Shown here: piece by piece, positions 18,464 through 61,747 of the stretch
Layout: the number at the start of each line of letters is the position of its first letter
Numbering within the stretch: the stretch's first letter is position 1
Assembly (NCBI GenBank): GCA_965200155.1
Contig: CBDATR010000005.1
Coordinates: forward strand, 35,138-99,137
DNA from: Nitrosopumilaceae archaeon
GTDB lineage: Archaea; Thermoproteota; Nitrososphaeria; Nitrososphaerales; Nitrosopumilaceae
DNA: 64,000 nucleotides
Direction: 5' to 3'
Made by a program: the position numbers and the translations under genes
The notes under the pieces: generated by a model
Told to the model about the DNA's origin: nothing
Database searches by the model: none
Seen by the model: only the letters and a program-made list of their open reading frames with translations

Positions 18464-18572
18464 TCCTGCTAACAACTTTAACCCGGAATGTCGAATATAC
18501 TCCTAAATGGCATGACTTGTCCATTTTCGATCACTTCCTGCTAACAACTTTAACCCGGAATGTCGAATATAC
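18464..18572. repeat. Repeat-spacer-repeat: 37-bp duplication around a 35-bp insert
   Basis: TCCTGCTAACAACTTTAACCCGGAATGTCGAATATAC at 18464-18500 and 18536-18572. Confidence 0.9.
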
Positions 18573-18575
18573 AGC

Positions 18576-19211
18576 ATGAAATTGAATCTGGATGGAATAA
18601 TAGATACTTTAGAAGCGGTACAGGAGTCCCGGAACGCCCTGCTTACACAGTCTCGCCGTGCCATATCCGCGTGTGGTCGTGCCATAATACTGACACACCG
18701 GGGTATGCATGAGGAGGCAGTAGAGGCGCTAAAGATTGCCGACACACAGATAAGAACTATGCAGAATGCGGCTCTGCCCTCAACCATGCATTATATCATA
18801 CCTGCAGAGCAGGAGTATGCCGAGGCGTCCGTATTCATGAATATAGTAAGGCATGACAGTATACCGGATATATCTGCCTTGGCCATACAGCCTGAGTCAT
18901 ACGTGCTGGGCATGCTGGATGTTATAGGCGAGCTCAAGCGTCTAATGCTGGATCAGATACGAATGGGTATGGCCGATGCGGCACATCATACGTTTGATAC
19001 CATGGAGCGCCTGTATACGGACTTGTACGAATTTGCCGCATATGATAAAGTTCTCAGAGAGTCTCGCCGCAAGCTGGATGTAGCGCGGATACTGCTGGAG
19101 GACTGCCGCTCCATTATAACCGAGGAGCAACGTAGGCAGGATATGTTACAAAGCATGCGGGCGATGGGATTTGAACCCACGAACTCCTCAGAGACTAGCC
19201 CCTCAAGCTAG
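18576..19211 (+). CDS. Translin-family protein
   Basis: QEYAEA, YVLGMLDVIGELKR, RRKLDVAR. Confidence 0.88.
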   Translation: MKLNLDGIIDTLEAVQESRNALLTQSRRAISACGRAIILTHRGMHEEAVEALKIADTQIRTMQNAALPSTMHYIIPAEQEYAEASVFMNIVRHDSIPDISALAIQPESYVLGMLDVIGELKRLMLDQIRMGMADAAHHTFDTMERLYTDLYEFAAYDKVLRESRRKLDVARILLEDCRSIITEEQRRQDMLQSMRAMGFEPTNSSETSPSS

Positions 19212-19240
19212 CGCCTTTGGCCAGGCTGGGCGACGCCCGC
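19156..19240 (-). tRNA. tRNA-Leu(GAG)
   Basis: GCGGGCGTCGCCCAGCCTGGCCAAAGGCG..CTAGC TTGAGGG GCTAG..long variable arm..GTGGGTTCAAATCCCATCGCCCGCA. Confidence 0.95.
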
Positions 19241-19293
19241 ATAGACGCGCTCTTGCATGGTTTTTATAATCCTTGGGCATCATCACGATCTAG

Positions 19294-19530
19294 ATGCTTG
19301 TTCCAGTAAGATGTTTTACCTGTGGCAGTCTTATTGCGGACAGGTTTACCAGATACAAAAAGGAGATCCGGGCGGGCAAGGATCCTGGTGAGGTTCTGGA
19401 CTTGATGAATATGAGTCGGTACTGTTGCAGGCGAATGTTTCTCACATCGGTGGAAACAATACATCAAGTGATTCCGTTCTTTGAGGCAGTGGGCAAGAGA
19501 AACGAAGAGATACGACAGGATATTGCTTGA
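19294..19530 (+). CDS. rpoN: RNA polymerase subunit N (Rpo10)
   Basis: PVRCFTCG, RYCCRRM. Confidence 0.97.
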   Translation: MLVPVRCFTCGSLIADRFTRYKKEIRAGKDPGEVLDLMNMSRYCCRRMFLTSVETIHQVIPFFEAVGKRNEEIRQDIA

Positions 19531-20765
19531 CTGGAATAATAACGTCTGTACGTGGTCGTGTAATACTGAACAGCCGCGGTTCCCAAACACTTGAGATAGA
19601 TATATCTGACGGTACCAGCACGGGTCGAGCCGCGGCGCCCTCCGGAGCCAGTGTGGGCATGCACGAGGCTGTATCTTTTCCCGACGGTGGGCCTCAGGCA
19701 TCACTGAATTTTTTAGATAATCATGTATCTGTGCTGTTGGGCGTTGATCCCGGTGACGCCTCTGCAATTTATGGTGCGCTGCGAGAGCTGGATCCTACCC
19801 CCTCCTATTCTGTGATGGGCGGTTCCCTTGCATATGCTGTATCGCTGGCGGCAGCACAATGTGCCGCAAAGTCAAAGAATTTGCCCCTCTATCATCATCT
19901 GGGCGGACGGGACTCGTACCGCTTGCCTATTCCTCTTGGTAACATACTGGGCGGGGGGGCCCATGCAGGACCGGGCACTCCGGACATACAGGAGATACTG
20001 GTATGCGCTCTCAGGCCGGATACCATTCATGATGCTATATGGACCAACATTGCTATACATCAAGAATTAGGCCGCAAACTCTCCAGTCTGGATGGGAGTT
20101 TTACCCGAGGTCGCGGTGATGAGGGCGGCTGGGCTCCGGTTATGACAAACGAGAAGGCATTGGAGACATCGGCTCGCGTATGTGAGTCTCTGGGTTATAC
20201 CCTGGGCAAGGATGTATCTCTGGGGGTTGATTTTGCCTCATCAACGCAGTATGATGCCAAGTCTGATCGGTATGTTTACGAGCGCGCAGGATTTAGCAAC
20301 GACGCTGGGGAGCAGATAGAGTTTATCTCAGATATAATACGGCGATACAAGCTGGTGTATGCCGAGGATGGGGTACATGAGGAAGACTTTGATGGAATGG
20401 CCACGCTAACCTCCCGATTCCCTGATACGCTGGTGACCGGCGATGATTTGACGGTAACCAACCATACCATACTGGAAAAGGCCGCATCCATGCATTCGTG
20501 CAACGCAGCCATACTGAAGGTCAACCAAGCGGGATCCCTGTACGAGGCTCTCCTCTTTGCGCGCACTGCACAGGAAAGGAGTATTCAGCTGGTAACCTCG
20601 CACCGTTCAGGCGAATCCACCAACTCACATATAACACATGTGGGTATAGCTACTGGCTCTTCACTGTTAAAGGTGGGTGTAGTGGGGGGTGAACGGGTCG
20701 CTAAACTCAACGAGCTTCTGCGAATATCTGAGCATGATTTAATACAAGGCCTCGCAACCCTGTAA
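19527..20765 (+). CDS. eno: Enolase
   Basis: NSRG, PSGAS, GDEGG, LKVNQ, SHRSGE, ERVAKLNELL. Confidence 0.96.
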   Translation: MTGIITSVRGRVILNSRGSQTLEIDISDGTSTGRAAAPSGASVGMHEAVSFPDGGPQASLNFLDNHVSVLLGVDPGDASAIYGALRELDPTPSYSVMGGSLAYAVSLAAAQCAAKSKNLPLYHHLGGRDSYRLPIPLGNILGGGAHAGPGTPDIQEILVCALRPDTIHDAIWTNIAIHQELGRKLSSLDGSFTRGRGDEGGWAPVMTNEKALETSARVCESLGYTLGKDVSLGVDFASSTQYDAKSDRYVYERAGFSNDAGEQIEFISDIIRRYKLVYAEDGVHEEDFDGMATLTSRFPDTLVTGDDLTVTNHTILEKAASMHSCNAAILKVNQAGSLYEALLFARTAQERSIQLVTSHRSGESTNSHITHVGIATGSSLLKVGVVGGERVAKLNELLRISEHDLIQGLATL

Positions 20766-20768
20766 TAC

Positions 20769-28949: not shown

Positions 28950-29069
28950 GCGGCATAGCCACGGGTCTGTTCTAGCCGCCCAACCATGGGGCGGCATAGC
29001 CACGGGTCTGTTCTAGCCGCCCAACCATGGGGCGGCATAGCCACGGGTCTGTTCTAGCCGCCCAACCAG
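28950..29069. repeat. 41-bp tandem repeat x3 (36-bp GGGGC...GCCCA hairpin + ACCAT)
   Basis: GCGGCATAGCCACGGGTCTGTTCTAGCCGCCCAACCATGGG repeated. Confidence 0.9.
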
Positions 29070-29084
29070 AAAGGCTGGCGCATA

Positions 29085-47476: not shown

Positions 47477-47587
47477 GTTGCCACAACCAAAATAGCTCAA
47501 GACCTAAACATCGCGAGTGGCAGTGAAATATATTCGCAATATGCATATGATGTTGCCACAACCAAAATAGCTCAAGACCTAAACATC
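47477..47587. repeat. Repeat-spacer-repeat: 36-bp duplication around a 39-bp insert
   Basis: GTTGCCACAACCAAAATAGCTCAAGACCTAAACATC twice; single in IS481 copies A-C. Confidence 0.92.
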
Positions 47588-48050
47588 AGTTCAAGACACG
47601 TACGAAGATTGTGAACCAGAGAACGGGAACGACTCAAGTAAAGATGGGCAGGCCCATGATACCAATCACCGCCACACAGATACGAATGGTAACTGAAGCA
47701 TACAGCAAGGATCCCGCCGGAGTAGTACGTATTGCAAAGAGGCTTAGACATAATACATACCACGCAGTATATCGCATAATGAAAAAGAACGGTACGGCAG
47801 GATCATCACCTGCAAAGTCAGAGTGGGTACGCTATGAGCGTAAATATTCCAATGCAATGTGGCACTGGCATGTCATGAAAGATGAGCGCTTCAGGGGACT
47901 GGATCTCATAGATGATGCATCCAGGTGTATAGTCGGAGCGGCACTTTGAGCATGCAACCTCAGAGAACGCCGTTCTATTACTGAGACTGGCAATGAAACG
48001 ATTCGGCGCCCCTGCATCTCGGATAACGGCGCGTGTTTCGTAGGACAATA

Positions 48051-48142
48051 GTGTGAGTTCACCTATGTCTAAATTTACGCATAACTGATCGCGACAGTTA
48101 ATGTGATTTGTGCATAAAATTCCGGAAGACGTGAACTCATAC
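48051..48142 (-). mobile_element. 92-bp MITE
   Basis: TIRs; TSD GGACAATA. Confidence 0.95.
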
Positions 48143-48869: not shown

Positions 48870-49571
48870 ATGCAGTCTGTTATACTGGCTGGCGGTTTGG
48901 GTACGCGTCTACTGCCATATACCATGTTTCTACCCAAACCAATGCTGCCCCTAGGGGAAAAACCGCTTTTGGAGCACCTTATAGAATGGAATGTCCAGCA
49001 TGGCCTGGATGATATAGTCATATGCATAAGCTATCTGGGAAGGCTTATCGAGAACTATTTTGGTAATGGGGGGGAATTTGGCGTATCCATACAATACGCG
49101 AGATCCAAAAAACCGTTAGCTACCGCAGGTCAGCTTCATACGGCTCGCGATCTATTGGATGATACCTTTGTGTGCATGTATGGGGATTCTCTGTACGACT
49201 TTGATTTGGGCAGTATGATAAATGCCCATAGACACAACAGTGCATTCATCACCATGGCTTTGCACCGTCACACATCAACTATACCATACGGTGTAATAGA
49301 TACACATGCGGATGGCAGTGTACTGAGTTGGCGCGAAAAACCGAAAATCACAAACCAGATAAACGCGGGCTGCTATGTAATGGAGCCTGATATAATGAAG
49401 CACATACCAGCAGATGTGCCTTGGGGTATGGATGCCGTTATAAAATCCACCATGAATGATGGCAGCAAGGTTTACGGACATGTCTTTGAGGGCGACTTTA
49501 TAGATGTGGGAACACGCGATTCCTACGATACGCTGAGCCAAAAGTATAGGGAGAGGCTGAAAAATGTATGA
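48870..49571 (+). CDS. Sugar-phosphate nucleotidyltransferase
   Basis: ILAGGLGTRLLP..PKPML. Confidence 0.93.
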   Translation: MQSVILAGGLGTRLLPYTMFLPKPMLPLGEKPLLEHLIEWNVQHGLDDIVICISYLGRLIENYFGNGGEFGVSIQYARSKKPLATAGQLHTARDLLDDTFVCMYGDSLYDFDLGSMINAHRHNSAFITMALHRHTSTIPYGVIDTHADGSVLSWREKPKITNQINAGCYVMEPDIMKHIPADVPWGMDAVIKSTMNDGSKVYGHVFEGDFIDVGTRDSYDTLSQKYRERLKNV

Positions 49572-50046
49572 TAAATCCAAGAATGGGAGTTATACACAGG
49601 TGCCGGACAATCATAATATCGTAATACGGGATATCATTTCACAGGATATAGACAACGGTTTCCTGGAATCACTGGATTCATTGCGTACCGCAAGCAGTAT
49701 GGACAAGACTCGCGCTAGGTCAATACTCAGTGGAATAGAGAATGACCCCAATCACATAATAGCTGTGGCATCCATATCTGATATGGTGGTGGGTACGGCT
49801 ACCCTCTTGATAGAACAAAAGTTTATCCACAACGGTGGACTGGCGGGCCACATCGAGGATGTTGCCGTAGCGACCAAGTATCGGGGCAAGGGTATAGGCA
49901 GCATGATTGTGGAGTACCTTTTAGCGGTTGCCTACAAAAGGGGCTGCTACAGAACTACGCTGGACTGCCAACCATACCTGATACCATTTTACACAAAAAT
50001 GGGATTCAGGAGACACGCTGATACCATGCGTTATGATCATAACTAA
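49564..50046 (+). CDS. GNAT acetyltransferase, glucosamine-6-phosphate N-acetyltransferase-like
   Basis: EQKFIH..GHIEDVAV..RGKGIG, CYRTTLDC. Confidence 0.88.
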   Translation: MYDKSKNGSYTQVPDNHNIVIRDIISQDIDNGFLESLDSLRTASSMDKTRARSILSGIENDPNHIIAVASISDMVVGTATLLIEQKFIHNGGLAGHIEDVAVATKYRGKGIGSMIVEYLLAVAYKRGCYRTTLDCQPYLIPFYTKMGFRRHADTMRYDHN

Positions 50047-50483
50047 AGATAGTCTTTCCTGCGTTTACGCGCTCTTGTACGAAACAGCAGGGCACCAAAT
50101 ACCATCACCGGTACTGACACCGCCATGAACAGCGGGGGTGAGATGTCTGTGGCAGTGGTCACGTATGTGGGGTGTATGGAGTCCACCAGTGTATTACAAT
50201 ATGCCATGCCTGCCAGCAGGGCTCCTCCACCTCCGATTATCATGGAACCGGCAAACCGTGAACCATATCTTTTAGATAACAAGAATGACACCGCGGCCAT
50301 TATGGAAGCGGGAGCCACTCCGATGGAAATGAACTGCAGTATCTTGGGATCTGGCTCAAATATTATTCCCGACTCTATATCTTCTGGAGCCTGTAGCATG
50401 TAGTTGTATATGGTTGCCATCTCCCCCACAAACAACACAAAGAGCCCTAGACTGGCTACTGCTATCCACTTTTCCATGGCCAT
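50043..50483 (-). CDS. Conserved hypothetical membrane protein
   Basis: Four hydrophobic segments, basic C-terminus. Confidence 0.75.
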   Translation of the reverse strand: MAMEKWIAVASLGLFVLFVGEMATIYNYMLQAPEDIESGIIFEPDPKILQFISIGVAPASIMAAVSFLLSKRYGSRFAGSMIIGGGGALLAGMAYCNTLVDSIHPTYVTTATDISPPLFMAVSVPVMVFGALLFRTRARKRRKDYL

Positions 50484-50521
50484 TATGCTATAATACGTTG
50501 GTTTCTAAATAAACCATTAAG

Positions 50522-51460
50522 TCAATCTACTCCTACTATGGATACAAGCTCACTGCGCCCTGCCGCGCTGAGTCTCTTGACTACCTCTTCCGGCGACACA
50601 TCACACAGGGATATGCCAAAACCGTGCAGCAGGCTTGGTGATACTGGTGTCGATGGATATACCTCTATGTGCCAATGCAACTGAATGCGGTTCTTTGGTG
50701 GAAGACGCAGAACCAGGCTGTATGGGGCGTTATCCAGTATGGTGGCAAGACCCTTCAATAGGGCAGTCAGTATGAGCGCCAAGTCCTTGATCTCCTTCTG
50801 GCTTATGGAGAGAAATCGGACTCCGTGTCTCTTGGGAGCTATCCAAAACTCGTAGGGAAACGAGGGTGACCATGGGCAGAACGCAATAAAACTACCAGCC
50901 TCCAATATGTGGTTGTTTTTTTCTGTACCTGGTTTGATCATCTGGCATACATGACAGACGTCTAGGTTATTCTTTGCAATGTTGGCCATCTTGACCTCGT
51001 CAGTTATCGTCAATGGTACATCCTTGAACGTGACTACGTTCAGGTGTGGCACACAGCTGAAAGCGCTCATGTCTGCGTATATGGCCACATACTTGACATG
51101 CCTTCTTTCATACAATGATTCCACGGTATTCTGGGCTGCTACCAACATGTTTGTCCATTGTTGTTGGTCATCTATTCTGTCATCGCTTCCTGTCACCGTT
51201 AGCTCATAATGGTGACCAAAAGCGGGCTGGCTGGACATGGGGGCATCAGTGTACGTCTCCTTGGAATTGGTGGTGACTATTGGGTTACTACTTTTGTGAA
51301 TTAGTATGGTATAGTCGTTCTCTCTTCCAAAGGCGTTGTCCATCTTTTGTATATTGCCGTCCCTGTAGATGAGCAATTGTGCAGGCTCGTCCGTATCCGA
51401 CTCCTCGTCATAATGTCCCCTTATGATGGCAGTCTTCTTGTTTATGTGATTCTTTCGCAT
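50522..51460 (-). CDS. Galactose-1-phosphate uridylyltransferase-like protein (divergent)
   Basis: CHVC, FCPWSPSFPYEFWIAPKRH, HWHIEVYP; HxH motif reads VPH. Confidence 0.8.
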   Translation of the reverse strand: MRKNHINKKTAIIRGHYDEESDTDEPAQLLIYRDGNIQKMDNAFGRENDYTILIHKSSNPIVTTNSKETYTDAPMSSQPAFGHHYELTVTGSDDRIDDQQQWTNMLVAAQNTVESLYERRHVKYVAIYADMSAFSCVPHLNVVTFKDVPLTITDEVKMANIAKNNLDVCHVCQMIKPGTEKNNHILEAGSFIAFCPWSPSFPYEFWIAPKRHGVRFLSISQKEIKDLALILTALLKGLATILDNAPYSLVLRLPPKNRIQLHWHIEVYPSTPVSPSLLHGFGISLCDVSPEEVVKRLSAAGRSELVSIVGVD

Positions 51461-51796
51461 TAAACTCAATGGTATCAAGCATGCCGCGTGGTTGAAAAAT
51501 CTTTGGAGAGAATTTTCACATACCCCATTCCATGTTATCTGTGTGATTTCATATCTTCCGCAATCATATGATGGATGAGTCTGGGCATTGCTCAACCTGT
51601 CTATCGTACCCTTCTGTGGTGCGCCGTGCTCTTACACTGGTTGACGCTATACGCACAAATCATGCAATACTCCAATTGGTATGTGTTATGTGTATCTGAG
51701 CAACAAGTACGGTAATCATTCCCGCGTGACTAAGACGTTAACTCATGATACTACTGCTGGAAAATTTTATTATCTTTCATCACCTAAATTTTCCAC

Positions 51797-52933
51797 ATGC
51801 AAAATGCGGAGAACGTACAAAATCCTGTCATGGAACAGCAACAGAGGCTGCTTGTGATATGTGTTGACAGGGATAATGATGTGGGGGACAAGGCCAACAT
51901 AGAAACTCCGGTGTTCGGCCGCGATTCGTGTATTGAGGCTGCCCAGAGGTTGGCCCTGGAGGATCCCGAGGACGCGGACTCCAATACAATATTTGCCGCG
52001 ATAAAGACTTATGAAGACTTGGTAAGCAAGGGATATACCGCCGAGGTGGTCACCGTGGCCGGATCCGCAGATAGGGGTGTGGTTGCGGATGAAAAAATAC
52101 TGCGCGAGGTAAAGGAGCTCCTGACAAAGTTTCCTGCCACCGGTGCCATAATCATATCCGATGGGGAAGATGATGAATCTGTCATACCTGTAATACAGGG
52201 TGTCCTTCCAATAGTTTCAGTTAAACGGGTGGTGATGAAGGTAAGTCGTACCGTGGAGTACTCCTATGCTGTCCTGGGTAAGTATCTCAAGATGGTGGCA
52301 TACGACCCCAAGTATTCCAAGTTCTTTCTTGGATTGCCCGGCATCCTTTTACTCATAGGTGGCATAGGTAGCATATTCGGATATACTGCGGAAATATTTG
52401 CGGTTCTTGTGAGTGTGCTGGGTGGGGCCTTTGTTATACGCGCCTTTGATGTGGACAGAACCCTTTCCAACTGGACCAAGCCCACCCCCACGGGATTTGT
52501 TAGAATGTTTGCATTAATTGGCGGAGCCGTGTTGATACTGTCCTCTGTACCTGCCGGGCTTACCGCCCTGGATCCTGCCATATTCTCGTCCCAGATAGAC
52601 GTTGTGTCTGCAATGACTGACAGGGTGATACTGGGTCAGTTCGTGGCCGGTGCACTCCCAATACTGTGGGTGGGGATGGGCGCCATACTGTCTGGAATGC
52701 TACTTAGCAATATAATGGCCGGTTCCCACCGGCAAATAGGCGACATCCTGCGACTGGTGGTACTTGTATCACTATATCCCGCTGTGCACCAATTCACCAA
52801 TATTCTCGTATATGATGAGAGCTCCTTTTCTCTCATATTGCCCATAATGGGTGGCCTGGGAGTGACCGCGGTGGTGGCCACCATACTCTTCTGGAGAAAC
52901 CGCCGTAACAGAACAGTGGATAACGAAAGCTGA
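51797..52933 (+). CDS. DUF373 family membrane protein
   Basis: VICVDRDND, DPEDADSN, SDGEDDE and TM C-terminus. Confidence 0.9.
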   Translation: MQNAENVQNPVMEQQQRLLVICVDRDNDVGDKANIETPVFGRDSCIEAAQRLALEDPEDADSNTIFAAIKTYEDLVSKGYTAEVVTVAGSADRGVVADEKILREVKELLTKFPATGAIIISDGEDDESVIPVIQGVLPIVSVKRVVMKVSRTVEYSYAVLGKYLKMVAYDPKYSKFFLGLPGILLLIGGIGSIFGYTAEIFAVLVSVLGGAFVIRAFDVDRTLSNWTKPTPTGFVRMFALIGGAVLILSSVPAGLTALDPAIFSSQIDVVSAMTDRVILGQFVAGALPILWVGMGAILSGMLLSNIMAGSHRQIGDILRLVVLVSLYPAVHQFTNILVYDESSFSLILPIMGGLGVTAVVATILFWRNRRNRTVDNES

Positions 52934-52961
52934 ATAACCGACACTTGATCACTGGATTGTA

Positions 52962-53753
52962 ATGGGCAGACTGCGGGATCTTATTCTACGATACTCCCGA
53001 TTATACGATGTATATGCAAGGCGCCTTGAGCGGGAAATTCTGGGCGATGACATACCCGGTCACATAGCAATAATACTGGACGGAAACAGGCGGTGGGCCA
53101 AACGTCATATGAGTCAAAAGATGAAGGGACACTTTCAGGGAGCAGACGCGGTGGAGAATCTGTTGGAGTGGTGCAAGGAACTGGATATTCGCATTGTTAC
53201 ACTATACGTGCTCTCCACCGAGAACCTGTCCCGGGAGGGTGATGAGCTTTCATACCTGTACCAGCTAATAGAGCGACGGCTGTCCAAACTGTATCACGAC
53301 CCTCGCATACACAGGGATCGTATGCGAGTGCGGTCCATAGGGAAGACAGATATCCTTCCCGAATCTCTTCGAGACATACTGCATAGACTGGATGATGCCA
53401 CTATCGACTATGATATGCGCTACCTTAATGTCGCGCTAGCTTATGGGGGGCAAAGCGAGTTGGTGGATGCCATAAAAAAGATTGGTGCCAAGATAGTGAA
53501 TGGTGATTTGAATGTAAATGACATAAGCCCCAGCATTATAGAGTCCCATCTGTACACGTCATATCTGCCACAACCGTCCCCGGATCTCATACTTCGTACA
53601 TCCGGCGAGCAAAGACTAAGCGGATTTCTGCTCTGGCAGAGTGCATACAGCGAGCTGGTATTCATGGACATACTGTGGCCTGATTTTAGGAAGATTGATC
53701 TTTTGAGGGCTGTACGAATATACCAAAAGCGACGGCGACGAATGGGCAAGTAG
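52962..53753 (+). CDS. uppS: Polyprenyl diphosphate synthase (cis-prenyltransferase)
   Basis: HIAIILDGNRRWA, RTSGEQRLSGFLLWQ. Confidence 0.96.
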   Translation: MGRLRDLILRYSRLYDVYARRLEREILGDDIPGHIAIILDGNRRWAKRHMSQKMKGHFQGADAVENLLEWCKELDIRIVTLYVLSTENLSREGDELSYLYQLIERRLSKLYHDPRIHRDRMRVRSIGKTDILPESLRDILHRLDDATIDYDMRYLNVALAYGGQSELVDAIKKIGAKIVNGDLNVNDISPSIIESHLYTSYLPQPSPDLILRTSGEQRLSGFLLWQSAYSELVFMDILWPDFRKIDLLRAVRIYQKRRRRMGK

Positions 53754-53850
53754 GCGTATTCTCATGCCAGAGTGGTATGTGGCGAGTATATGGCCAGAGA
53801 CTTTTGGCAGTCACTATACCAATTTAAACGGGATGCGCACATTCCGTATC

Positions 53851-54270
53851 ATGGAAGTATCGGCGGGAGTTGTGCTAATCAGGAAGGAGAACGGAGTAAA
53901 CCTCTTCTTGCTGCTACAGTATCCTTCGGGACATTGGGACTTTATCAAGGGCCATAAAGAGAATGGTGAGACCGATATACAGACCGCCATTAGGGAGTCC
54001 GAGGAGGAGACCGGTATTCGCGACATACAGTTTCTGGACGGATTTGCAGAGCGTATACAATACGTGTACAAGAACAGGCATCGTCTAATACACAAGCGTG
54101 TGGTATTTCTGCTGGGCATTACAAATACCGCGGAGGTCAGTTTGTCTGATGAGCACCTGGAATTCCTGTGGACCGACTATGAGCAATCCGTACAACAGGT
54201 TACCTTCGGTAATGCCCGCCGTGTACTGTCCCGGGCTCAGGAGTTCCTGCGTGAGCGCAATATGCTATAG
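53851..54270 (+). CDS. NUDIX hydrolase (Ap4A hydrolase-like)
   Basis: WDFIKGH..GET..TAIRESEEETG Nudix box. Confidence 0.92.
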   Translation: MEVSAGVVLIRKENGVNLFLLLQYPSGHWDFIKGHKENGETDIQTAIRESEEETGIRDIQFLDGFAERIQYVYKNRHRLIHKRVVFLLGITNTAEVSLSDEHLEFLWTDYEQSVQQVTFGNARRVLSRAQEFLRERNML

Positions 54271-54597
54271 TGCCGTGACTTTGGTATAGAAAATTAAGGA
54301 ATTATATACATGGGTTACCTGTATATTCTCTTATATTTGCATAACTATTCCCAACTTTGTAAACACGTATTCGTGTTATCGGGTGTAGTTCGTTACACTA
54401 ATCCTGCGCCTCTTTCACCTTGGCATTCAATCCTGTCGCCATTCATGGTGGGTTCCGCACACAATCGTTCCCTGATGTAATCCAAGTTCGCATCCGGCCT
54501 CAGCCGCTCCAACATCACATCATCCATGGCTGTGCTGGATTCATCCTGCCACAGGTTCATAATGATATCGAATGGTTCCTATATCTGCCGAGAACCA

Positions 54598-54744
54598 GTA
54601 TGAGTTCACGTCTTCCGGAATCTTGTGCACAAAAGAACCGGTTCTGTATGAGTTCACGTCTTCCGGAATCTTGTGCACAAAAGAACCGGTTCTTTAACTG
54701 TCGCGATCAGTTGTGCGTAAATTTAGACACAGGTGAACTCATAC
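54598..54744 (+). mobile_element. MITE variant with 48-bp tandem duplication of its left end
   Basis: TIR starts at 54598 and 54646; TSD GAGAACCA. Confidence 0.9.
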
Positions 54745-55457
54745 GAGAACCAGCCTGACAGAATTACCAAGTTTGAATAATTCTCATACGTCATGCAGAA
54801 CCGTTCCCATTTCACACCAGTGGCCGCGGTCATGGGAAGAATAATTCCAAGATATCCCCGTCTATTACATGAATCACCCGGATCAGGGTTCAAGTTACAC
54901 ACCCAGCTTGAAAATCTGAATTACAAGTACATTCAATCGAAAGATCACGACTTTCTTTGGCATTACACGCTGACAACGCCAAATACATAGAACGTGGGAG
55001 AAACCTCCTAGTTCAGTACTACCCTGCATGGATCAAGATGAACCATGCCAAGGAGGGGCGCCCCCTTGCGCGGATGCTCTGAATTTCGTGTCCATAAACT
55101 TGGATCTCCATGACATTGGGAATGCTTCAGAATCAATCGTTCATCTACGTCACTAAGACGAATCCAGAATGGTGACCTGCTCGGATCCAGACAAGCTAAT
55201 GACTATGGTTCTGGACTCCCACAGTCCAATCGCGGCGAATAGATACAAAGACGCGTATTCATAAAAAACACACGTGCAAGAAATGCAGTCGTGGTTACGG
55301 ACGACAGTACCGGCGATGCAGAACCGCATGCTGAATCAAATATCTACAAACACAAGGATCAGGTGGAACTAATATCCGGAACCGGGGTTCCCCTATCCAG
55401 GTGAGTTGCGTAGACTAACGGTAATTGTTATTAACTCTACAAGGAACGTACTAAATT

Positions 55458-57158
55458 ATGGGAGGACGAGAAACCACAATACTATTTGGTATGGTTGCCA
55501 TAGCTGCCTTGGGAACGGTTATGACTGTATATGCTCAGGACACAATATCCGGACTTGAGGTAACCGGTACGTCCGATGGCGCCACCATGTCATGGGATAG
55601 ATATGATAGAATGGAAAATTACGTGGTTCGTGTTGATGATACACATGGCCAGCGAGTAATGGTGACACATACAAGCGGAATCTCATATACGATAACCGGC
55701 TTGGCGTCCGATACCTCATACCAGGTATCGGTCCGGCTCAAGGGTGACTCGTCGGTAAAATCAGATACGATAACCTTTACTACACTTTCTGATACCTCAT
55801 CCAAAATAAATGACGATGATAATACCTCTGCCAAGATAACATTGTATTCTCCTGAAGTCACCAGTGACGGTGCCTCCATATCCTGGGATAGATATGATAG
55901 AATGGATCGATATGTTATACGAGTCTTGGATAGTAACGGTGACAGAGTACAGGTCAAGCAGGCTACAGGAACCTCATACATTATAACCGGCCTGGAATCC
56001 AACACCTCATACCAGGTATCTGTCCGGCTCAAGGGTGACACTTCCGTACAATCTGATACAACAACCTTTACCACGCTTGGTACGGGTACAGGCAAGATAG
56101 CACTGAACACAATTAGATCCACCAGTGACGGTGCCTCCATATCCTGGGATAGATATGATAGAATGGATCGATATGTTATACGAGTCTTGGATAGTAACGG
56201 TGACAGAGTACAGGTCAAGCAGGCTACAGGAACCTCATACATTATAACCGGCCTGGAATCCAACACCTCATACCAGGTATCTGTCCGGCTCAAGGGTGAC
56301 ACTTCCGTACAATCTGATACAACAACCTTTACCACGCTTGGTACGGGTACAGGCAAGATAGCACTGAACACAATTAGATCCACCAGTGACGGTGCCTCCA
56401 TATCCTGGGATAGATATGATAGAATGGATCGATATGTTATACGAGTCTTGGATAGTAACGGTGACAGAGTACAGGTCAAGCAGGCTACAGGAACCTCATA
56501 CATTATAACCGGCCTGGAATCCAACACCTCATACCAGGTATCTGTCCGGCTCAAGGGTGACACTTCCGTACAATCTGATACAACAACCTTTAGGACTACA
56601 AAATCGGTCGGCGCACCCAAGTTCACCAGTTCCATAGGCAATATAACAATGGAAGAGGCCCAGGTCCGTATCATAACCTTGAATGCGACGGATCCCAATG
56701 GTGATTCCTTGGTATATAGAATCACAAACCAGGACGATTCCCCCACGCCCGTTGTTTTTTACATAGATGATGACAAGCTGTATCTTGTTGCTACCAGACA
56801 TGAATCTGGCACATACAAACTGCGTGTTACAGTGAGTGATGGAACGAATATAGACAAGGACGACTTTGTGCTTACCATAAATGATGGTGCCATTCCGCCT
56901 CCCTCCATTACTAGAATAACAGATACTACTATAACTATACAACTCCCCAGTGAGGACGACGACCCGCGTTGTGTAGCTGCCTATGCCATTTCCTATATTC
57001 CACCTAAGTTCGCGGTTGGTGTTCAGACAGAGTCCGGGGAGCCTATTACAATAACGGACCTAACACCTAGCACAGTTTATGATGTCACCGTATACAACAG
57101 ATGTCACAGTTATTATTTGAGCCACTTCACGTTTACGACAACGGATAATCCTTCCTAA
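55458..57158 (+). CDS. Secreted fibronectin type III repeat protein
   Basis: Signal peptide, four FN3 units, then cadherin-like and FN3 domains. Confidence 0.9.
   Translation: MGGRETTILFGMVAIAALGTVMTVYAQDTISGLEVTGTSDGATMSWDRYDRMENYVVRVDDTHGQRVMVTHTSGISYTITGLASDTSYQVSVRLKGDSSVKSDTITFTTLSDTSSKINDDDNTSAKITLYSPEVTSDGASISWDRYDRMDRYVIRVLDSNGDRVQVKQATGTSYIITGLESNTSYQVSVRLKGDTSVQSDTTTFTTLGTGTGKIALNTIRSTSDGASISWDRYDRMDRYVIRVLDSNGDRVQVKQATGTSYIITGLESNTSYQVSVRLKGDTSVQSDTTTFTTLGTGTGKIALNTIRSTSDGASISWDRYDRMDRYVIRVLDSNGDRVQVKQATGTSYIITGLESNTSYQVSVRLKGDTSVQSDTTTFRTTKSVGAPKFTSSIGNITMEEAQVRIITLNATDPNGDSLVYRITNQDDSPTPVVFYIDDDKLYLVATRHESGTYKLRVTVSDGTNIDKDDFVLTINDGAIPPPSITRITDTTITIQLPSEDDDPRCVAAYAISYIPPKFAVGVQTESGEPITITDLTPSTVYDVTVYNRCHSYYLSHFTFTTTDNPS
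55859..56591. repeat. 261-bp near-perfect intragenic tandem repeat (~3 copies)
   Basis: CCAGTGACGGTGCCTCCATA at 55861, 56122, 56383. Confidence 0.93.
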
Positions 57159-57419
57159 CACATATCTGTGGAGTACAAAAAAGGCTATCTGTAGGCGGAG
57201 ACTTATGAATATCGTCCTGTCCTAGTTGTATCATTATGGGTCGCTAGTGGGGTCTCCTGTATGGTCCATTTTCAGTATCTTGCATTGTAACCGTTAAGGT
57301 TAGGTACAGGATATGCATTAACGTTGGTAATACTATCCCGGATGGAGTAGTCCGTATTCCAAAGAGAGTTGCATTCACACCGTACCCATTTACGCTGTTC
57401 TGACTGTATGATATGTAAG

Positions 57420-58195
57420 CAGGTGGCCAGCCATCCTATTATCATGGTTATCGTATCCAACAGCCTTATGTTGAGCCGTCCGGTAAACTCGTTCATCGAT
57501 GTATTGCGTAAACATGATAGAAGACGCCGTAAACCCCCGTTTTAGTAAAATTTCAGAACGACTCGAATCAATGGTGTAACATATGGCGGACATATTCCCC
57601 AGCGCTATGCTTCACGCTCATGATTTTTCAATGACTTGTAAGCCGTGTTTTCGTCAGTGCATTTGGTGGTATATGCCTAGGCATTCTCTTATCAAGGCGG
57701 GCCGCAGTCGTTTTCGGGAGCGGTTTGGCGTGTATTGTTCCAGTCTTTTATGCCGACAACCGCGGTTTTGTTCGCGGTTCCCTTCCTCATCTCCTTGCCG
57801 CCGATGTACATCTCGTCCATCCATCTTGTAATCTGGACTGACTAGCGTTCTTCATTACTCCCTCAAACGATGTACTAGGAACCACGCCGATTTCTGTGTG
57901 ATGCCCAAGTCGCGGTACAGTTTCATACCGGAGACGACTTTCAGGTTTGTGGCTAACAGGCATGTTACTATCGACCAATTCTGGTTGGACTTTTTTTTAA
58001 GAGTCCCCTGGTAACTAATTTTGGACTGCTGCATAATGGTCCCGTACTTGACGCTAAAGAACCGGTTGCATTCTATGCATCGATGTGGCATCTTTTTGTG
58101 AGCGGACTCGCAAGTCGTGCTAGAGCCGCAGTGGGGGCATTTGCTTCCGTCCTTCCAGATTTTCGACTCAAACCATTTCGTCATCCGGGAACATG
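57420..58195 (-). pseudogene. IS1595-family transposase remnant
   Basis: CPHCGS..CIEC..FSVKYGT zinc ribbon, LGITQKSAW, MDEMYIGG, EFTGRLN. Confidence 0.85.
57986..58007 (-). mobile_element. 22-bp micro-hairpin insertion
   Basis: TGGACTTTTTTTTAAGAGTCCC flanked by CTGGT/CTGGT; adds 9 codons in frame to the IS1595 ORF. Confidence 0.88.
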
Positions 58196-58967
58196 CAGAA
58201 TAATTCTCCTATTACCTGTTACATAGTATATCAAGGTAATCCATGCATATGGTTCTCGAAAATTCATACACCGAATTTAATCCATGCAGATGATTCCTGG
58301 TATACAAGAACAGGATGGCAATAATTCAGGTCATGCCGGGAGTGTGTGTTTGTCTATATCCACAGGGCGGCTAGCGAGAATACAATTGATGATACGAGTG
58401 TATGGTGGAATATTCCAATGTATCTTGTGAACCCAAAAACTATGGCTGGGAAAATATGCCATACATGAAATGGCGACCGTGATGAGCAAACCAAAGTAAA
58501 ATAATATCGGCTCTAGAGTCACAAGGTATGGGTGGACTAGTCTTGGAAAGTTCGTTTCCTCGCAATGAAGGGGAACTCTGGCATTGCCATCTTGCAAGAG
58601 TATGGGAGTATATTCTGGCTGGTGACGCGTATTGCGTGCAATGTATCTACAACATGTCTACTACACTTTACAGCGATATACTTTTACCAATGGATGGCGT
58701 AGGTTGGCATGCCCAGAGACGCCATATATTTGGGTATGGCAAAAGAGATGCCCCAAAGGTTACAGTATCTTACCAATCGGTGTATTATACACTGCCCGTC
58801 TGTAGCATAGTCATTACCATAATTACTACCCATGATATAGTTGCATATTCATCAATTCATGGCATTTCATCATATACTAGAGGCGGGTCTTGTCTGAGAC
58901 CAAACTGCTGGTGTACTTACCATAAGGTCATACACATGTCGGCGCAGGGTAGATGGGGCAGTGTATC

Positions 58968-60341
58968 ATGATCATACAAGATACATTAAGCCGGGAGGAA
59001 AAGGTACTGTCGCAGAATACTGTGGGGATATACCTTTGCGGTGTAACAGTTTATGATGATTCGCACATAGGTCATGCCCGGACCATTATAGTCTTTGATG
59101 TTCTGCGTCGGTACTTGGAGCATATGGGTCATGCCGTACGTATGATACAGAATTTCACCGACGTGGATGACAAAATCATACAGCGGGCTGCCACGGAAGG
59201 GGCAGAACCCCTTGAGCTGAGCGCCCGGTATATCAACCGGTATCATCAGGACTTTGACGCCCTCAACGTCTTGCGGGCTACCGCCTACCCGCAAGCATCT
59301 GAGCACATAACGCAGATAATCTCGCTTATATCGGAGCTTATAAAGTCGGGTCACGCATATGATGCTAGTTCCGGTGTATACTACTCGGTGGGTTCATTTC
59401 CCCAGTATGGCGTACTGTCTAAGAAGGATATGACCCAGATGCTGGCAGGTTCCCGGGTAGATCTGGAGCATGACAAAAAAGACCCCGCAGACTTTGCTCT
59501 ATGGAAAAAAACCGGAGAACCTCCATTTTGGGATAGTCCGTGGGGGACGGGACGTCCCGGATGGCATATAGAGTGCTCTGCCATGAGCCTTCAATACTTG
59601 GGCAAGCAGTTTGAGATACATGGCGGTGGGAGGGATCTAATATTCCCGCACCATGAGAACGAGATAGCCCAGAATCATGGCTACTCTGGACTTCAGCCCG
59701 CCCATGTCTGGATGCACACGGGAATGGTTACGATATCGGGCCAAAAGATGTCAAAGTCGCTGGGCAATGTCAAGACAGTTAGGACACTATTGTATATGTG
59801 GGGTCCCAACGTACTCCGTCTCTTCTGCCTGTCGGGTCAGTACCAAAAGCCAATAGACTATACCCCTGAATTGCTAACGGAGTCTCTGGCATTGTGGAGG
59901 CGCCTGGAGACGTGCTACCATACACTGGAGCAGACCATTCCAGGAGATGCTGACGGGGATGAAATCTGGCTGGACACATTTGAGAGGCGCCTCTCTGAGG
60001 ACTTGAATACCCATGGCGCCATAGCGACAATGATGGAGATGGCCCGGGAAGTGGGTGAGCGGGCCGCCCGAAAACAGCTGGACGGGGGCATCGCGGCGTC
60101 TTTGCATAAACAGTTACAAAAAATGCTGGGTATTCTTGGATTAGTTGTGGCCCCAATTCCAGACATGGCTAACATGATGAATATGGTTAAGCAGAGAGAG
60201 GAATGCCGCCGGGCTCGAGACTATTCCAGCGCCGACTCCATCCGGGACAAACTAAGGCATGCCAACGTGGAGCTGCTGGATTACCGGGGTCGCACACTGT
60301 TGGTATACCATGAGCCCATACCCGGCGAGAATGCTGTCTGA
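58968..60341 (+). CDS. cysS: Cysteine-tRNA ligase
   Basis: CGVTVY..HIGH, PGWHIECS, FPHHENE, KMSKS. Confidence 0.97.
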   Translation: MIIQDTLSREEKVLSQNTVGIYLCGVTVYDDSHIGHARTIIVFDVLRRYLEHMGHAVRMIQNFTDVDDKIIQRAATEGAEPLELSARYINRYHQDFDALNVLRATAYPQASEHITQIISLISELIKSGHAYDASSGVYYSVGSFPQYGVLSKKDMTQMLAGSRVDLEHDKKDPADFALWKKTGEPPFWDSPWGTGRPGWHIECSAMSLQYLGKQFEIHGGGRDLIFPHHENEIAQNHGYSGLQPAHVWMHTGMVTISGQKMSKSLGNVKTVRTLLYMWGPNVLRLFCLSGQYQKPIDYTPELLTESLALWRRLETCYHTLEQTIPGDADGDEIWLDTFERRLSEDLNTHGAIATMMEMAREVGERAARKQLDGGIAASLHKQLQKMLGILGLVVAPIPDMANMMNMVKQREECRRARDYSSADSIRDKLRHANVELLDYRGRTLLVYHEPIPGENAV

Positions 60342-60524
60342 GTGTGAACGCAAACCCCATTGCCCTGCTCTGGTCAACTGAAGCTGGCATAGCTTGTTGA
60401 CAGAATATCCCCCAACTCCAGAAAAACACTGTATACATTTTGGCACTTCCGCACTATTGTACATATAGCGGTCACCATAAGTCTTTGAGAACATGGCACC
60501 TCGTTCCTAGACAGTACATGGCTT

Positions 60525-60616
60525 GTATGAGTTCACGTCTTCCGGAATCTTGTGCACAAATCACATTAACTGTCGCGATCAGTTGTGCGTAAATTTAGAC
60601 ACAGGTGAACTCATAC
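60525..60616 (+). mobile_element. 92-bp MITE
   Basis: TIRs; TSD CATGGCTT. Confidence 0.95.
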
Positions 60617-61296
60617 CATGGCTTTGGATTGTCACCATTATTCCCGCCCTGACGCCTCCGGACGACACGCTCTGCCGCCCCATACAGGGAAACCAGTTAC
60701 TAAACGCCGCGTTGATATCGGCGTGAAATTCCTGGTTACATATTGAAAGTGTCACTAGTTGATCGTGATTTGTCGTCAACGTGTCCACACACGTGACGGG
60801 TCTGGCTTGTGTATTTCGCCGGCACAGCCGCAAATTCAATCCCCAGTGCCTCGCACTTTTGTACTACTTTCCGGCGGAACTCGCCTACCCGGTTCTCGCG
60901 CATGGAGCGGTTCATTGTTATTTTGTGGTTCCCGCCATTACTGGTCATTGATATCGGCGATAAATCATCTAGTACTACCTTGCCCACACCTTTGGTGACC
61001 GCGTGGACTATTCTATTCGTGGAGTCGTTCGCAATGTTGTTGGCTTTCTGTCGTAATTGAGTGACTTGTTTCTCGATCTTTCGCTTCCTGCGCTTACCTT
61101 TTCGCGTTCTAATACTCTGGAGTGAGATAATCTCCCGCAATATGGAACGATGTATCATGTTATGAATAATCGTTCTACCATTCGTGTAAGCTGTTACAGC
61201 TAGATGTTTCCCGCCGACATCCACGCCGCGAACAACGCTGGTTGGTACATGTTTTGGTGGTTTCTCCCGTATATTGATGTGAATCTCGAATTGACG

Positions 61297-61409
61297 CTCC
61301 CTACTATTGGTTACTCGTTCCACTATCTTGAATGTACCTTGTCAAATACAAAGAATTCTACCTCAGGACCCCTCCCTACTATTGGTTACTCGTTCCACTA
61401 TCTTGAATG
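61297..61409. repeat. Repeat-spacer-repeat: 38-bp duplication around a 37-bp insert
   Basis: CTCCCTACTATTGGTTACTCGTTCCACTATCTTGAATG twice. Confidence 0.92.
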
Positions 61410-61637
61410 AGTGCATGTCCAAGGAACGATCGATTATTTTGGTTGTTCTCACCATACCAATACCCGGCAGGTATAGTTCGCGAGAACCGCGCCTTATCGG
61501 CGGACTCACACATTACTCTATCATTGTCACGCCGGTGTGGTATGTAATTAGAATGATCCTCGTACGCCCGCCTGCACGCGACAGACGCCTGTAATATGGC
61601 ACTTCGGCCATAGTTAGAGGGTAACTCGCGCACCCAC

Positions 61638-61747
61638 TCCAGATCAGGGCGCCACTTTGTCAATTCCAGGAACAAATATTCCGGTACACCAGCGGCCTGA
61701 ACGGCTCTATCCAGATCAGGGCGCCACTTTGTCAATTCCAGGAACAA
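61638..61747. repeat. Repeat-spacer-repeat: 38-bp duplication around a 34-bp insert
   Basis: TCCAGATCAGGGCGCCACTTTGTCAATTCCAGGAACAA twice. Confidence 0.92.

What the first reader, a model, noticed from the sequence alone, without database searches (positions are those of the whole stretch)
18464..61747. Scattered single-spacer CRISPR-like insertions: 36-38 bp local duplication around a 34-39 bp foreign fragment
Seen: four unrelated sites share one geometry (repeat/spacer 37/35 at 18464, 36/39 at 47477, 38/37 at 61297, 38/34 at 61638; periods 72, 75, 75, 72). The duplicated sequences are different from each other and belong to the local DNA (a promoter, IS481, tnpB). The middle pieces are unrelated to their surroundings. 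Known: Cas1-Cas2 inserts fixed-length spacers and duplicates a repeat-length target, and off-target integration outside arrays has been shown experimentally. Inference: a Cas1-type integrase in this lineage integrates fragments genome-wide with little sequence specificity, leaving orphan neo-arrays in neutral DNA. Four in 64 kb would be a high natural load. No cas gene is visible in the window.
Basis: partly seen in the sequence, partly recalled or inferred. Interest (0 to 1): 0.92.

Follow-up and report, generated by a model that had tools for sequence, protein, structure and literature searches.

The report
Stray CRISPR spacer insertions genome-wide
The CRISPR spacer-inserting enzyme of this sponge-associated ammonia-oxidising archaeon appears to have pasted about 60 short DNA pieces, many copied from its own chromosome, into ordinary genes and mobile elements instead of into its CRISPR array.

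Summary
All four sites are exact, each a 36-38 bp direct repeat around a 34-39 bp insert.

**Genome-wide load.** The window's 2.38 Mb genome holds 68 such units, made by 63 independent events at 50 target sequences. Their periods are 71-75 bp, with one of 78 bp.

**Match to the native system.** The genome has one Cas1, a type I-G Cas4/Cas1 fusion with Cas2. It lies next to a 289-repeat array with a 36-nt repeat and 35-39-nt spacers. This geometry matches the stray units.

**Evidence for insertion plus duplication.**
- Rebuilt empty sites match uninterrupted paralogous copies for 35 of 68 units.
- 37 of 68 inserts are copies of sequence elsewhere in the same genome, mostly perfect.
- Only 1 of 288 native spacers matches the genome outside the array.

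The Cas1-Cas2 off-target reading is supported, with two corrections. Many inserts are self DNA, not foreign. Targeting is not fully random, because hot spots resemble the native repeat.

**Status and limits.** Off-target integration is known from E. coli experiments. My 7 literature searches found no natural load of this size. Reads spanning the sites could not be shown.

The parts
18464..18500 (.). Site 1, first copy of the duplicated 37-bp target
   Evidence: Exact repeat
18501..18535 (.). Site 1 insert (35 nt). No source found.
   Evidence: No other copy in the genome. A 25-nt core had no exact hit in viral contigs or metagenome contigs.
18536..18572 (.). Site 1, second copy of the target. 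It ends 3 nt before the ATG of the translin-family ORF 18576-19211 (+).
47477..47512 (.). Site 2, first copy of the duplicated 36-bp target, inside a repeat family of about 93 copies (HTH ORF 47405-47614)
47513..47551 (.). Site 2 insert (39 nt). No source found.
   Evidence: No other copy in the genome. A 26-nt core had no exact hit in viral contigs or metagenome contigs.
47552..47587 (.). Site 2, second copy of the target
   Evidence: The rebuilt empty site aligns end to end (1-236) with many paralogous copies at 77-88% identity.
61297..61334 (.). Site 3, first copy of the target (38 nt apparent), in a fragmented tnpB-like gene (ORF 60736-61323, minus strand)
61335..61371 (.). Site 3 insert (37 nt). 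It is a perfect copy of G000:C10:308550-308586.
   Evidence: 37 of 37 identical, one hit
61372..61409 (.). Site 3, second copy of the target
   Evidence: The rebuilt empty site matches 10 uninterrupted paralogous copies, the best at 94% over 225 bp.
61638..61675 (.). Site 4, first copy of the target (38 nt apparent), same tnpB-like element
61676..61709 (.). Site 4 insert (34 nt). It is a perfect copy of G000:C34:112405-112438.
   Evidence: 34 of 34 identical, one hit
61710..61747 (.). Site 4, second copy of the target
   Evidence: The rebuilt empty site matches 20 uninterrupted paralogous copies, the best at 96.6% over 238 bp.

Best explanation
The four sites, and about 60 more across the genome, are products of off-target (ectopic) spacer integration by the organism's own type I-G adaptation complex, the Cas4/Cas1 fusion plus Cas2.

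**Proposed mechanism.** The complex joins the two 3' ends of a prespacer of about 36 nt to the two strands of a non-CRISPR target, 36-37 bp apart. This is the same ruler it uses on its 36-nt repeat. Gap repair then duplicates the target, giving target-insert-target.

**Shown here:**
- The geometry and its match to the native array.
- The existence of empty sites.
- The chromosomal origin of many inserts.
- An intact cas4/1-cas2 pair.
- Repeated hits on repeat-like targets.

**Inferred:**
- That Cas4/1-Cas2 is the enzyme responsible.
- That self-derived spacers persist only at stray sites because those sites give no usable crRNA, while self-targeting spacers in the real array are purged by autoimmunity.
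- That the high load persists because this mobile-element-rich symbiont genome tolerates insertions.
For: **1. Geometry**
- 68 units remain after I dropped 9 tandem-repeat rows from 77 candidates.
- Periods are 71 (5 units), 72 (30), 73 (18), 74 (8), 75 (6) and 78 (1), mean 72.78. The native array mean is 73.06.
- Perfect pairs have apparent repeats of 36 (15 pairs), 37 (20) and 38-40 (10). This fits a 36-37 bp stagger plus chance extension.
- The native array has 289 repeats of 36 nt, 287 of them identical. Spacer lengths are 36 (85 spacers), 37 (101), 38 (63), 35 (16) and 39 (15).

**2. Machinery**
- There is a single Cas1 hit in the genome.
- It matches Cas4g/Cas1g (NF049935) at 710 bits against a cut-off of 560. 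Cas2 is also present.
- Cas3g, Csb2, Csb1 and the Cas3-extension protein lie on the far side of the array.

**3. Empty sites**
- 35 of 68 rebuilt pre-insertion sequences match uninterrupted paralogous copies.
- Two of them match at 100% over 236-237 bp.

**4. Donors**
- 37 of 68 inserts have a source sequence of at least 30 nt elsewhere in the genome, outside any stray unit.
- 27 of these sources are single-copy, and 20 of the 27 are 100% identical.
- Matches stop at the insert boundaries.
- Only 1 of 288 native spacers matches the genome outside the array. Fisher p = 3e-30.

**5. Link to the array**
- Native spacer 58 and the stray insert at C25:4797-4831 are overlapping pieces of one unknown source, shifted by 9 nt.

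**6. Site choice**
- 47 distinct targets average 12.91 of 36 identities to the native repeat. The figure is 11.42 for 5000 random sites scored the same way (z = 4.8).
- Seven multi-hit targets average 15.7, against 12.6 for single-hit targets (p = 6e-4).
- Five units at four sites lie within 9 kb upstream of the array.

**7. Independent assembly**
- A relative from another genus, G098, has the same system with a 36-nt repeat and period mode 73.
- It carries 2 clear stray units (36/75 and 37/73) in the 400 kb I sampled.

**8. Precedent**
- Off-target integration that spawns neo-CRISPR arrays was reported for E. coli by Nivala et al. 2018.
- I saw that work only as cited in passages of 10.1101/148544, PMC7054753 and PMC6698737.
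Against: - **No clear PAM.** TTN (the complement of the GAA PAM used for a type I-G system in PMC10504553) flanks only 10 of 37 source sequences on either side. I estimate about 5 would be expected by chance. So Cas4-type selection is not evident, and insert orientation could not be set.
- **No shared strong target motif.** A motif search found none.
- **Reads not shown to span.** Logan contigs break at the repeat copies and the output table was cut.
- **No orthologous empty sites.** Same-genus genomes are only about 75% identical in DNA, so empty sites rest on paralogues only.
- **No source for 31 of 68 inserts**, including window sites 1 and 2.
- **Relatives without stray units.** Two relatives with the same system showed none in 380 kb (G006) and 360 kb (G035). 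The system alone is therefore not sufficient for a high load.
- **Enzyme activity is inferred, not measured.**
Confidence: 0.9

Rival explanations
1. Assembly or sequencing artefact. On this reading the repeat-insert-repeat units are chimeric joins made by the assembler in a repeat-rich metagenome bin.
For: The genome is a 51-contig bin at 87.6% completeness and holds repeat families of up to about 90 copies. I could not show reads or contigs spanning the three sites laid.
Against: - An artefact has no reason to reproduce the native array's 36-37 / 35-39 geometry at 68 places.
- It would not place perfect single-copy fragments from other contigs between exact duplications.
- It would not recur in an independently assembled 2-contig genome, G098.
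- 28 of 68 units lie in single-copy DNA.
Confidence: 0.02
2. Another insertion system, such as an unrecognised integrase, a casposase-like enzyme or a transposase, makes a 36-37 bp target duplication and happens to match the CRISPR geometry.
For: No PAM signal. The genome is 12% incomplete. It holds many transposase families, including IS5, tnpB and the multi-copy families.
Against: - Only one Cas1 was found.
- The inserts are all different, have no terminal repeats or shared ends, and are random chromosomal fragments of spacer length.
- One insert overlaps a native spacer's source.
- Targets resemble the native repeat.
Confidence: 0.04
3. Repair-associated templated insertion. On this reading, break repair or template switching duplicates local DNA and copies a short stretch from elsewhere.
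For: The inserts are copies of distant chromosomal DNA, as templated insertions are.
Against: - The lengths are fixed, not broad.
- By my hand tally from the values printed, the ambiguous overlap between insert ends and target flanks averages about 1.8 nt over 19 units. I estimate about 1.3 nt by chance. So there is no microhomology signal.
- The same 36-nt target was hit up to 6 times, each time with a different insert.
Confidence: 0.03

Closest known systems
Neo-CRISPR arrays from non-canonical (off-target) spacer integration by Cas1-Cas2 in E. coli (Nivala, Shipman and Church 2018, Nat Microbiol; not held in the library, seen only as cited in passages of 10.1101/148544, PMC7054753, PMC6698737 and PMC6546382)
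   Same: - A spacer-length insert flanked by a repeat-length duplication of non-CRISPR DNA.
- Units can gain a second spacer, as at C9:70403-70587 and C24:237593-237778.
- The sites bear some likeness to the native repeat.
   Different: - That work used over-produced type I-E Cas1-Cas2 and supplied oligonucleotides (passage in PMC7054753). It had only 'circumstantial evidence' from two other species (passage in 10.1101/148544).
- Here the events are natural, number 63 in one genome, come from a type I-G Cas4/Cas1 fusion in an archaeon, and mostly carry self DNA.
In vitro off-target integration by Pyrococcus furiosus Cas1-Cas2 at repeat-like plasmid sites (Grainy et al. 2019, PMC6698737; passages read)
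   Same: Integration into non-CRISPR DNA that shares features with the repeat. Specificity comes from points spread along the repeat. Here, enrichment is at repeat positions 3, 5, 11, 12, 26 and 34.
   Different: That is a test-tube reaction on plasmids. Here the events are fixed in a chromosome.
Type I-G Cas4/1-Cas2 adaptation (Dhingra and Sashital 2023, PMC10504553; abstract and passages read)
   Same: The same protein family (Cas4g/Cas1g). That paper describes the Cas1 domain as a sequence-independent nuclease that trims the non-PAM end. This could explain how prespacers without a PAM arise.
   Different: That work describes PAM-directed, leader-directed integration. The stray units here show no clear PAM and no leader.
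Ectopic spacer acquisition inside CRISPR arrays of Streptococcus thermophilus (Achigar et al. 2021, PMC7999890; abstract only)
   Same: Integration away from the leader-proximal repeat.
   Different: Those events still use a true CRISPR repeat inside the array. Here the targets are unrelated genomic sequences.

Membership tests
Off-target Cas1-Cas2 integration product (neo-CRISPR unit) | Target duplication equal in length to the native repeat | tested here: met
   The native repeat is 36 nt. Perfect stray pairs are 36 nt (15 pairs), 37 nt (20) and 38-40 nt (10). Units with unambiguous source boundaries give duplications of 36 or 37 bp.
Off-target Cas1-Cas2 integration product (neo-CRISPR unit) | Insert length equal to native spacer length | tested here: met
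   Periods are 71-75 in 67 of 68 units, mean 72.78, against 73.06 for the native array.
Off-target Cas1-Cas2 integration product (neo-CRISPR unit) | A pre-insertion (empty) allele exists | tested here: met
   35 of 68 rebuilt empty sites match uninterrupted paralogous copies. Orthologous empty sites could not be tested, because relatives are only about 75% identical.
Off-target Cas1-Cas2 integration product (neo-CRISPR unit) | Insert is a captured fragment with an identifiable donor | tested here: met
   37 of 68 inserts have a source in the genome, and 20 of 27 single-copy sources are 100% identical. 31 of 68 have no donor.
Off-target Cas1-Cas2 integration product (neo-CRISPR unit) | Intact Cas1 and Cas2 in the same genome | tested here: met
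   The Cas4/Cas1 ORF is 549 aa with full-length matches, and a Cas2 ORF is present. Activity was not tested.
Off-target Cas1-Cas2 integration product (neo-CRISPR unit) | Donors carry the system's PAM | tested here: inconclusive
   TTN occurs on either flank in 10 of 37 sources. The PAM of this particular system is unknown. The GAA/TTC PAM is taken from another type I-G system.
Off-target Cas1-Cas2 integration product (neo-CRISPR unit) | Structure present in the DNA molecules (reads span it) | tested here: inconclusive
   The organism is present in 4 runs, but contigs break at repeats and the table is cut.
Canonical CRISPR array | Repeats shared with a cas-associated array, a leader, and a repeat that the crRNA-processing protein can bind | tested here: not met
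   The 50 target sequences are unrelated to each other and only 8-18 of 36 positions identical to the native repeat. They lie inside genes and mobile elements.
Type I-G CRISPR-Cas (the presumed source system) | Cas4g/Cas1g fusion, Cas2, Cas3g, Csb2 (Cas5/6), Csb1 (Cas7g) | tested here: met
   NCBIfam hits above cut-off: NF049935, TIGR02621, TIGR02165, TIGR02570, NF049934. Pfam Cas2.
Type I-G CRISPR-Cas (the presumed source system) | Large subunit Csx17/Cas8g | tested here: not met
   TIGR04113 was not found in G000 (87.6% complete), nor in G006, G098 or G035. It was found in G061 and G071. A divergent or unassembled copy is not excluded.
Tandem duplication with later divergence | Middle piece is a diverged copy of adjacent DNA | tested here: not met
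   The inserts match distant contigs perfectly. Nine true tandem-repeat rows were recognised and removed.
Casposon or other transposon | Element with terminal repeats and its own transposase; a constant element sequence | tested here: not met
   Each insert is 34-40 nt and all are different. There is no second Cas1.

The most novel reading that the evidence does not exclude
In this sponge-associated ammonia-oxidising archaeon, and at lower density in at least one related genus, the CRISPR adaptation module acts as a continuing genome-wide insertional mutagen and a natural source of new repeat-spacer-repeat seeds.

The stray units would then be an unselected fossil record of naive adaptation. 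That record would show that at least half of the captured fragments are self DNA, drawn preferentially from one 540-kb region.

The unusually high load may follow from loss of targeting fidelity. One candidate cause is the two-spacer unit that now separates the cas4/1 stop from the cas2 start by about 150 bp.
Probability: 0.3. Interest if true: 0.9.

Novelty: new member of a known kind. Interest (0 to 1): 0.8.

Why it matters
Off-target spacer integration has been shown with over-produced enzymes in E. coli and in test tubes. Whether it matters in nature has stayed open (passage in 10.1101/148544).

A natural genome with 63 events would matter in four ways:
1. It gives a direct measure of a hidden cost of CRISPR adaptation. 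Genes are interrupted, for example open frames of 495, 523 and 326 aa.
2. It gives a view of what the adaptation machine captures before selection by autoimmunity. Here 37 of 68 stray inserts are self DNA, against 1 of 288 in the real array.
3. It supplies natural target sites from which the repeat features read by a type I-G integrase can be inferred.
4. It provides living examples of how new CRISPR arrays with new repeats could arise.

It also warns annotators that one- and two-spacer 'arrays' in such genomes are not independent CRISPR loci.

Tried and rejected
- **Motif search.** A search over targets with free orientation and frame found no strong shared motif and was dominated by repeat families. 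I replaced it with a comparison to the native repeat using a matched random control.
- **PAM and orientation.** TTN occurs at 10 of 37 source flanks. By my own comparison of the rows, the orientation implied by TTN agreed with the best repeat-likeness orientation in about 5 of 9 cases, which is chance level. I made no claim about orientation.
- **Microhomology.** By my hand tally, microhomology at junctions is not above chance.
- **Orthologous empty sites.** Relatives are too divergent, at about 75% DNA identity.
- **Source of window inserts 1 and 2.** There was no exact hit for a 25- or 26-nt core in viral contigs or metagenome contigs. These searches are exact-match only, so a diverged source would be missed.
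- **Reads.** On window 47000-62000 in 4 runs from 2 studies, the unique parts are covered by contigs with 0-5 differences. The repeat-family parts are broken into short contigs and the piece table is cut. I assume these contigs are built from short words, which could not carry a 36-38-nt exact repeat. Spanning is therefore neither shown nor refuted. Loose ends at 47505 and a joint from 47505 to 47596 look like paralogous copies lacking the 75-bp unit, and I did not count them as evidence. No cover-based claim is made.
- **G098 inserts.** Two stray inserts have no second copy in that genome at up to 2 mismatches. So self-origin is not shown there. A third G098 candidate (32/73, palindromic, with a third partial copy) was left out as ambiguous.
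- **G006.** One decayed 26-nt pair with period 72 upstream of cas4/1 was not counted.
- **Csx17.** Its absence does not track the stray units: it is also missing in G006 and G035, which showed none.
- **Literature.** My 7 searches found no report of a natural genome-wide load of such units. The Nivala 2018 paper itself is not held, and supplements were not consulted.
- **Unpublished genome.** G095 appears only as one row in the tally.

Full report
**1. Observation**

All four sites are in the sequence exactly as described. The repeat finder lists them as 4 of the 7 direct-repeat families in the window.

| Site | Repeat copies | Repeat / insert / period |
|---|---|---|
| 1 | 18464-18500 and 18536-18572 | 37 / 35 / 72 |
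| 2 | 47477-47512 and 47552-47587 | 36 / 39 / 75 |
| 3 | 61297-61334 and 61372-61409 | 38 / 37 / 75 |
| 4 | 61638-61675 and 61710-61747 | 38 / 34 / 72 |

The four repeats differ from one another.

**2. The same structure genome-wide**

The window is G000:C5:35138-99137 in a 2.38 Mb, 51-contig genome that is 87.6% complete.

- An exact-repeat scan found one very large CRISPR array on contig C9 and dozens of isolated pairs with the same spacing.
- A mismatch-tolerant scan gave 77 candidates.
- I dropped 9 rows that are true tandem repeats: C10:347755, 347801 and 347832; C29:837; C32:797; C33:4561 and 4575; C40:6223 and 6595. That leaves 68 units.
- By insert sequence these are 63 independent events, on 50 distinct target sequences.
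- Periods are 71 (5 units), 72 (30), 73 (18), 74 (8), 75 (6) and 78 (1).

The distribution is sharply peaked. I took exact pairs outside the array and outside crowded tandem regions. Of 46 pairs with 36-38-nt repeats, 41 have a 34-39-nt gap, and neighbouring cells of the table are nearly empty. A shuffled genome gave only 4 repeated 14-mers within 200 nt.

**3. The native system**

- The genome has a single Cas1 hit. It is a 549-aa Cas4/Cas1 fusion (Pfam) that matches NCBIfam Cas4g/Cas1g at 710 bits against a cut-off of 560.
- It is followed by Cas2, a leader of about 165 bp, and 289 repeats of 36 nt, of which 287 are identical.
- The two variant repeats lie at the far end, which places the leader on the cas2 side.
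- Spacer lengths are 37 (101 spacers), 36 (85), 38 (63), 35 (16) and 39 (15), with 8 others.
- Beyond the array, on the other strand, lie a Cas3-extension protein, Cas3g, Csb2 and Csb1. This is a type I-G system.
- Csx17/Cas8g was not found here. An IS5 transposase fragment sits upstream of csb1.
- The native mean period of 73.06 matches the 72.78 of the stray units.

**4. Insertion plus duplication is shown by empty sites**

For each unit I rebuilt the sequence without one repeat copy and the insert, then searched the genome.

- 35 of 68 rebuilt sites match paralogous copies that run straight through the junction.
- Two match at 100%: C34:102345 over 237 bp and C13:35858 over 236 bp.
- Window sites 3 and 4 have 10 and 20 such copies.
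- Site 2 aligns end to end with many copies of its repeat family at 77-88% identity.
- Site 1 lies in single-copy DNA.

**5. Where the inserts come from**

- 29 of 68 inserts have an exact core match elsewhere in the genome.
- With BLAST, 37 of 68 have a source of at least 30 nt that is not itself part of a stray unit. Of these, 27 are single-copy, and 20 of the 27 are 100% identical.
- The alignments stop at the insert ends, apart from chance extensions.
- The window site 3 insert equals C10:308550-308586, and the site 4 insert equals C34:112405-112438.
- Only 1 of 288 native spacers matches the genome outside the array. Fisher p = 3e-30.
- That one match is itself to a stray insert. Native spacer 58 and the insert at C25:4797-4831 are overlapping pieces of one unknown source, shifted by 9 nt.

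So the stray sites and the array sample the same kind of DNA with the same fragment length, but only the stray sites keep self-derived fragments.

My inference is that self-targeting spacers in the real array are removed by autoimmunity. The stray units lack the native repeat, give no usable crRNA and are therefore tolerated. An alternative I cannot exclude is that the array has stopped acquiring and all present integration is off-target.

**6. Site choice**

No strong common motif exists, but targeting is not random.

- 47 distinct targets of at least 36 nt share on average 12.91 of 36 positions with the native repeat, taking the better orientation. The figure is 11.42 for 5000 random genomic sites scored the same way (z = 4.8).
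- The excess lies at repeat positions 3, 5, 11, 12, 26 and 34.
- Seven targets were hit by 2-6 different inserts each. These resemble the repeat more, at 15.7 against 12.6 (Mann-Whitney p = 6e-4).
- Five units at four sites lie within 9 kb upstream of the array.
- One of these is a two-insert unit placed exactly between the cas4/1 stop codon and the cas2 start. Both frames remain open, but they are now about 150 bp apart.

**7. Consequences for the genome**

- 40 of 68 units lie in multi-copy DNA and 28 in single-copy DNA.
- Of the 28 single-copy units, 14 fall in open frames of at least 100 aa in the rebuilt sequence.
- Some of these frames are now broken: 495, 523 and 326 aa at C10:229607, C10:288031 and C10:311421.
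- Others carry an in-frame addition, for example 575 to 599 aa at C22:16729.
- Periods divisible by 3 make up 37 of 68 stray units against 102 of 288 native units (p = 0.005). This may reflect selection against frameshifts, but I did not test that further.
- 47 of 68 repeat pairs are perfect, so most events are young.

**8. Weak points**

- **No clear PAM.** TTN flanks 10 of 37 donors on either side. The GAA/TTC PAM is taken from another type I-G system (PMC10504553, passages).
- **Reads.** The organism is present in 4 sponge-associated runs from 2 studies. Their contigs break at the repeats, so spanning is untested.
- **Empty sites** rest on paralogues only, because same-genus genomes are about 75% identical.
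- **Missing donors.** 31 of 68 inserts have none. The cores of window inserts 1 and 2 have no exact hit in the viral or metagenome collections.

**9. Relatives**

The genome encodes archaeal AmoA, and the runs that hold it are sponge metagenomes. In its family, 25 of 81 sampled genomes (G000 included) have a Cas1 match at E <= 1e-10. Eleven relatives have a Cas4/Cas1 of this type at 52-66% identity, one of them a partial match at a contig end.

| Genome | Relation | Amount sampled | Result |
|---|---|---|---|
| G006 | same genus | 380 kb | no stray units |
| G035 | same family | 360 kb | no stray units |
| G098 | another genus | 400 kb | 2 clear units, 36/75 and 37/73 |

G098 also has a native 36-nt repeat with period mode 73. 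Its two inserts have no second copy in that genome. The process is therefore not an oddity of one assembly, but its density here, about 1 per 35 kb, is unusual.

**10. Comparison with what is known**

- Off-target integration by Cas1-Cas2 that seeds 'neo-CRISPR' arrays was reported for E. coli by Nivala et al. 2018. I could not read that paper.
- Papers that cite it describe over-produced Cas1-Cas2 with supplied oligonucleotides, and only circumstantial evidence from two other species.
- Repeat-like off-target sites were mapped in vitro for Pyrococcus furiosus.
- My 7 searches found no natural genome-wide load like this one.

I therefore file the finding as a new, natural and unusually rich member of a known kind of event. 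It is not a new kind of system.

**11. Verdict**

| Question | Answer |
|---|---|
| Observation | confirmed |
| Confidence in the Cas4/1-Cas2 mechanism | 0.9 |
| Interest | 0.8 |

Noticed in passing
G000 contig C10 (donor positions 28035-478564): 17 of 27 single-copy donors of stray inserts lie on one 540-kb contig, where 6.1 would be expected (binomial p = 8.6e-6). Target sites are spread in proportion to contig length. This may mark a region prone to breaks or replication stalling.
   Followed up: partly
G000:C9:70403-70587 (outside the window): A two-insert stray unit sits exactly between the cas4/1 stop codon and the cas2 start. Both genes stay open, but they are moved about 150 bp apart. 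Its first insert has a perfect source on C10. Its second has a source on C24 with 1 mismatch.
   Followed up: partly
G000:C25:4797-4831 and native spacer 58 in C9: A stray insert and a native spacer are overlapping fragments of the same unknown source, shifted by 9 nt. That source is absent from the assembly.
   Followed up: partly
G000 repeat family, e.g. C24:454178-454282, C31:58798, C43:71452: The most-hit target (6 independent inserts) belongs to a family of about 70 copies. Those copies already carry two diverged versions of the 37-39-nt target 66 bp apart, which is a mini-array-like arrangement of unknown origin.
   Followed up: no
G000:C9:98700-100900 (L003:7217-9404): Csx17/Cas8g was not detected in this genome, nor in G006, G098 or G035. 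It was detected in G061 and G071. An IS5 transposase fragment lies where it might be expected, upstream of csb1.
   Followed up: partly
window 28950-29072; also C2, C9:21256 and 51848, C24:399689, C35:29901: A 41-nt unit occurs in tandem arrays at several places in the genome, with 3 copies in the window.
   Followed up: no
window 54598-54693: An exact 48-bp tandem duplication.
   Followed up: no
G000 contigs C2-C4, C6, C8, C11, C14-C18, C26-C29 and others: About two dozen small contigs of 35-43% GC contain microsatellites and long tandem repeats. They differ from the 45-52% GC of the large contigs and may be host or other DNA placed in the bin.
   Followed up: no
window 19155-19241 (minus strand): tRNA-Leu(GAG) overlaps the last 57 nt of the translin-family ORF 18576-19211. 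The ORF's true end may therefore be earlier.
   Followed up: no
G006, L023:3507-3604: A 26-nt exact pair with period 72 lies upstream of cas4/1 in the same-genus relative, and 6 of the next 10 nt also match. It may be an old, decayed stray unit.
   Followed up: no
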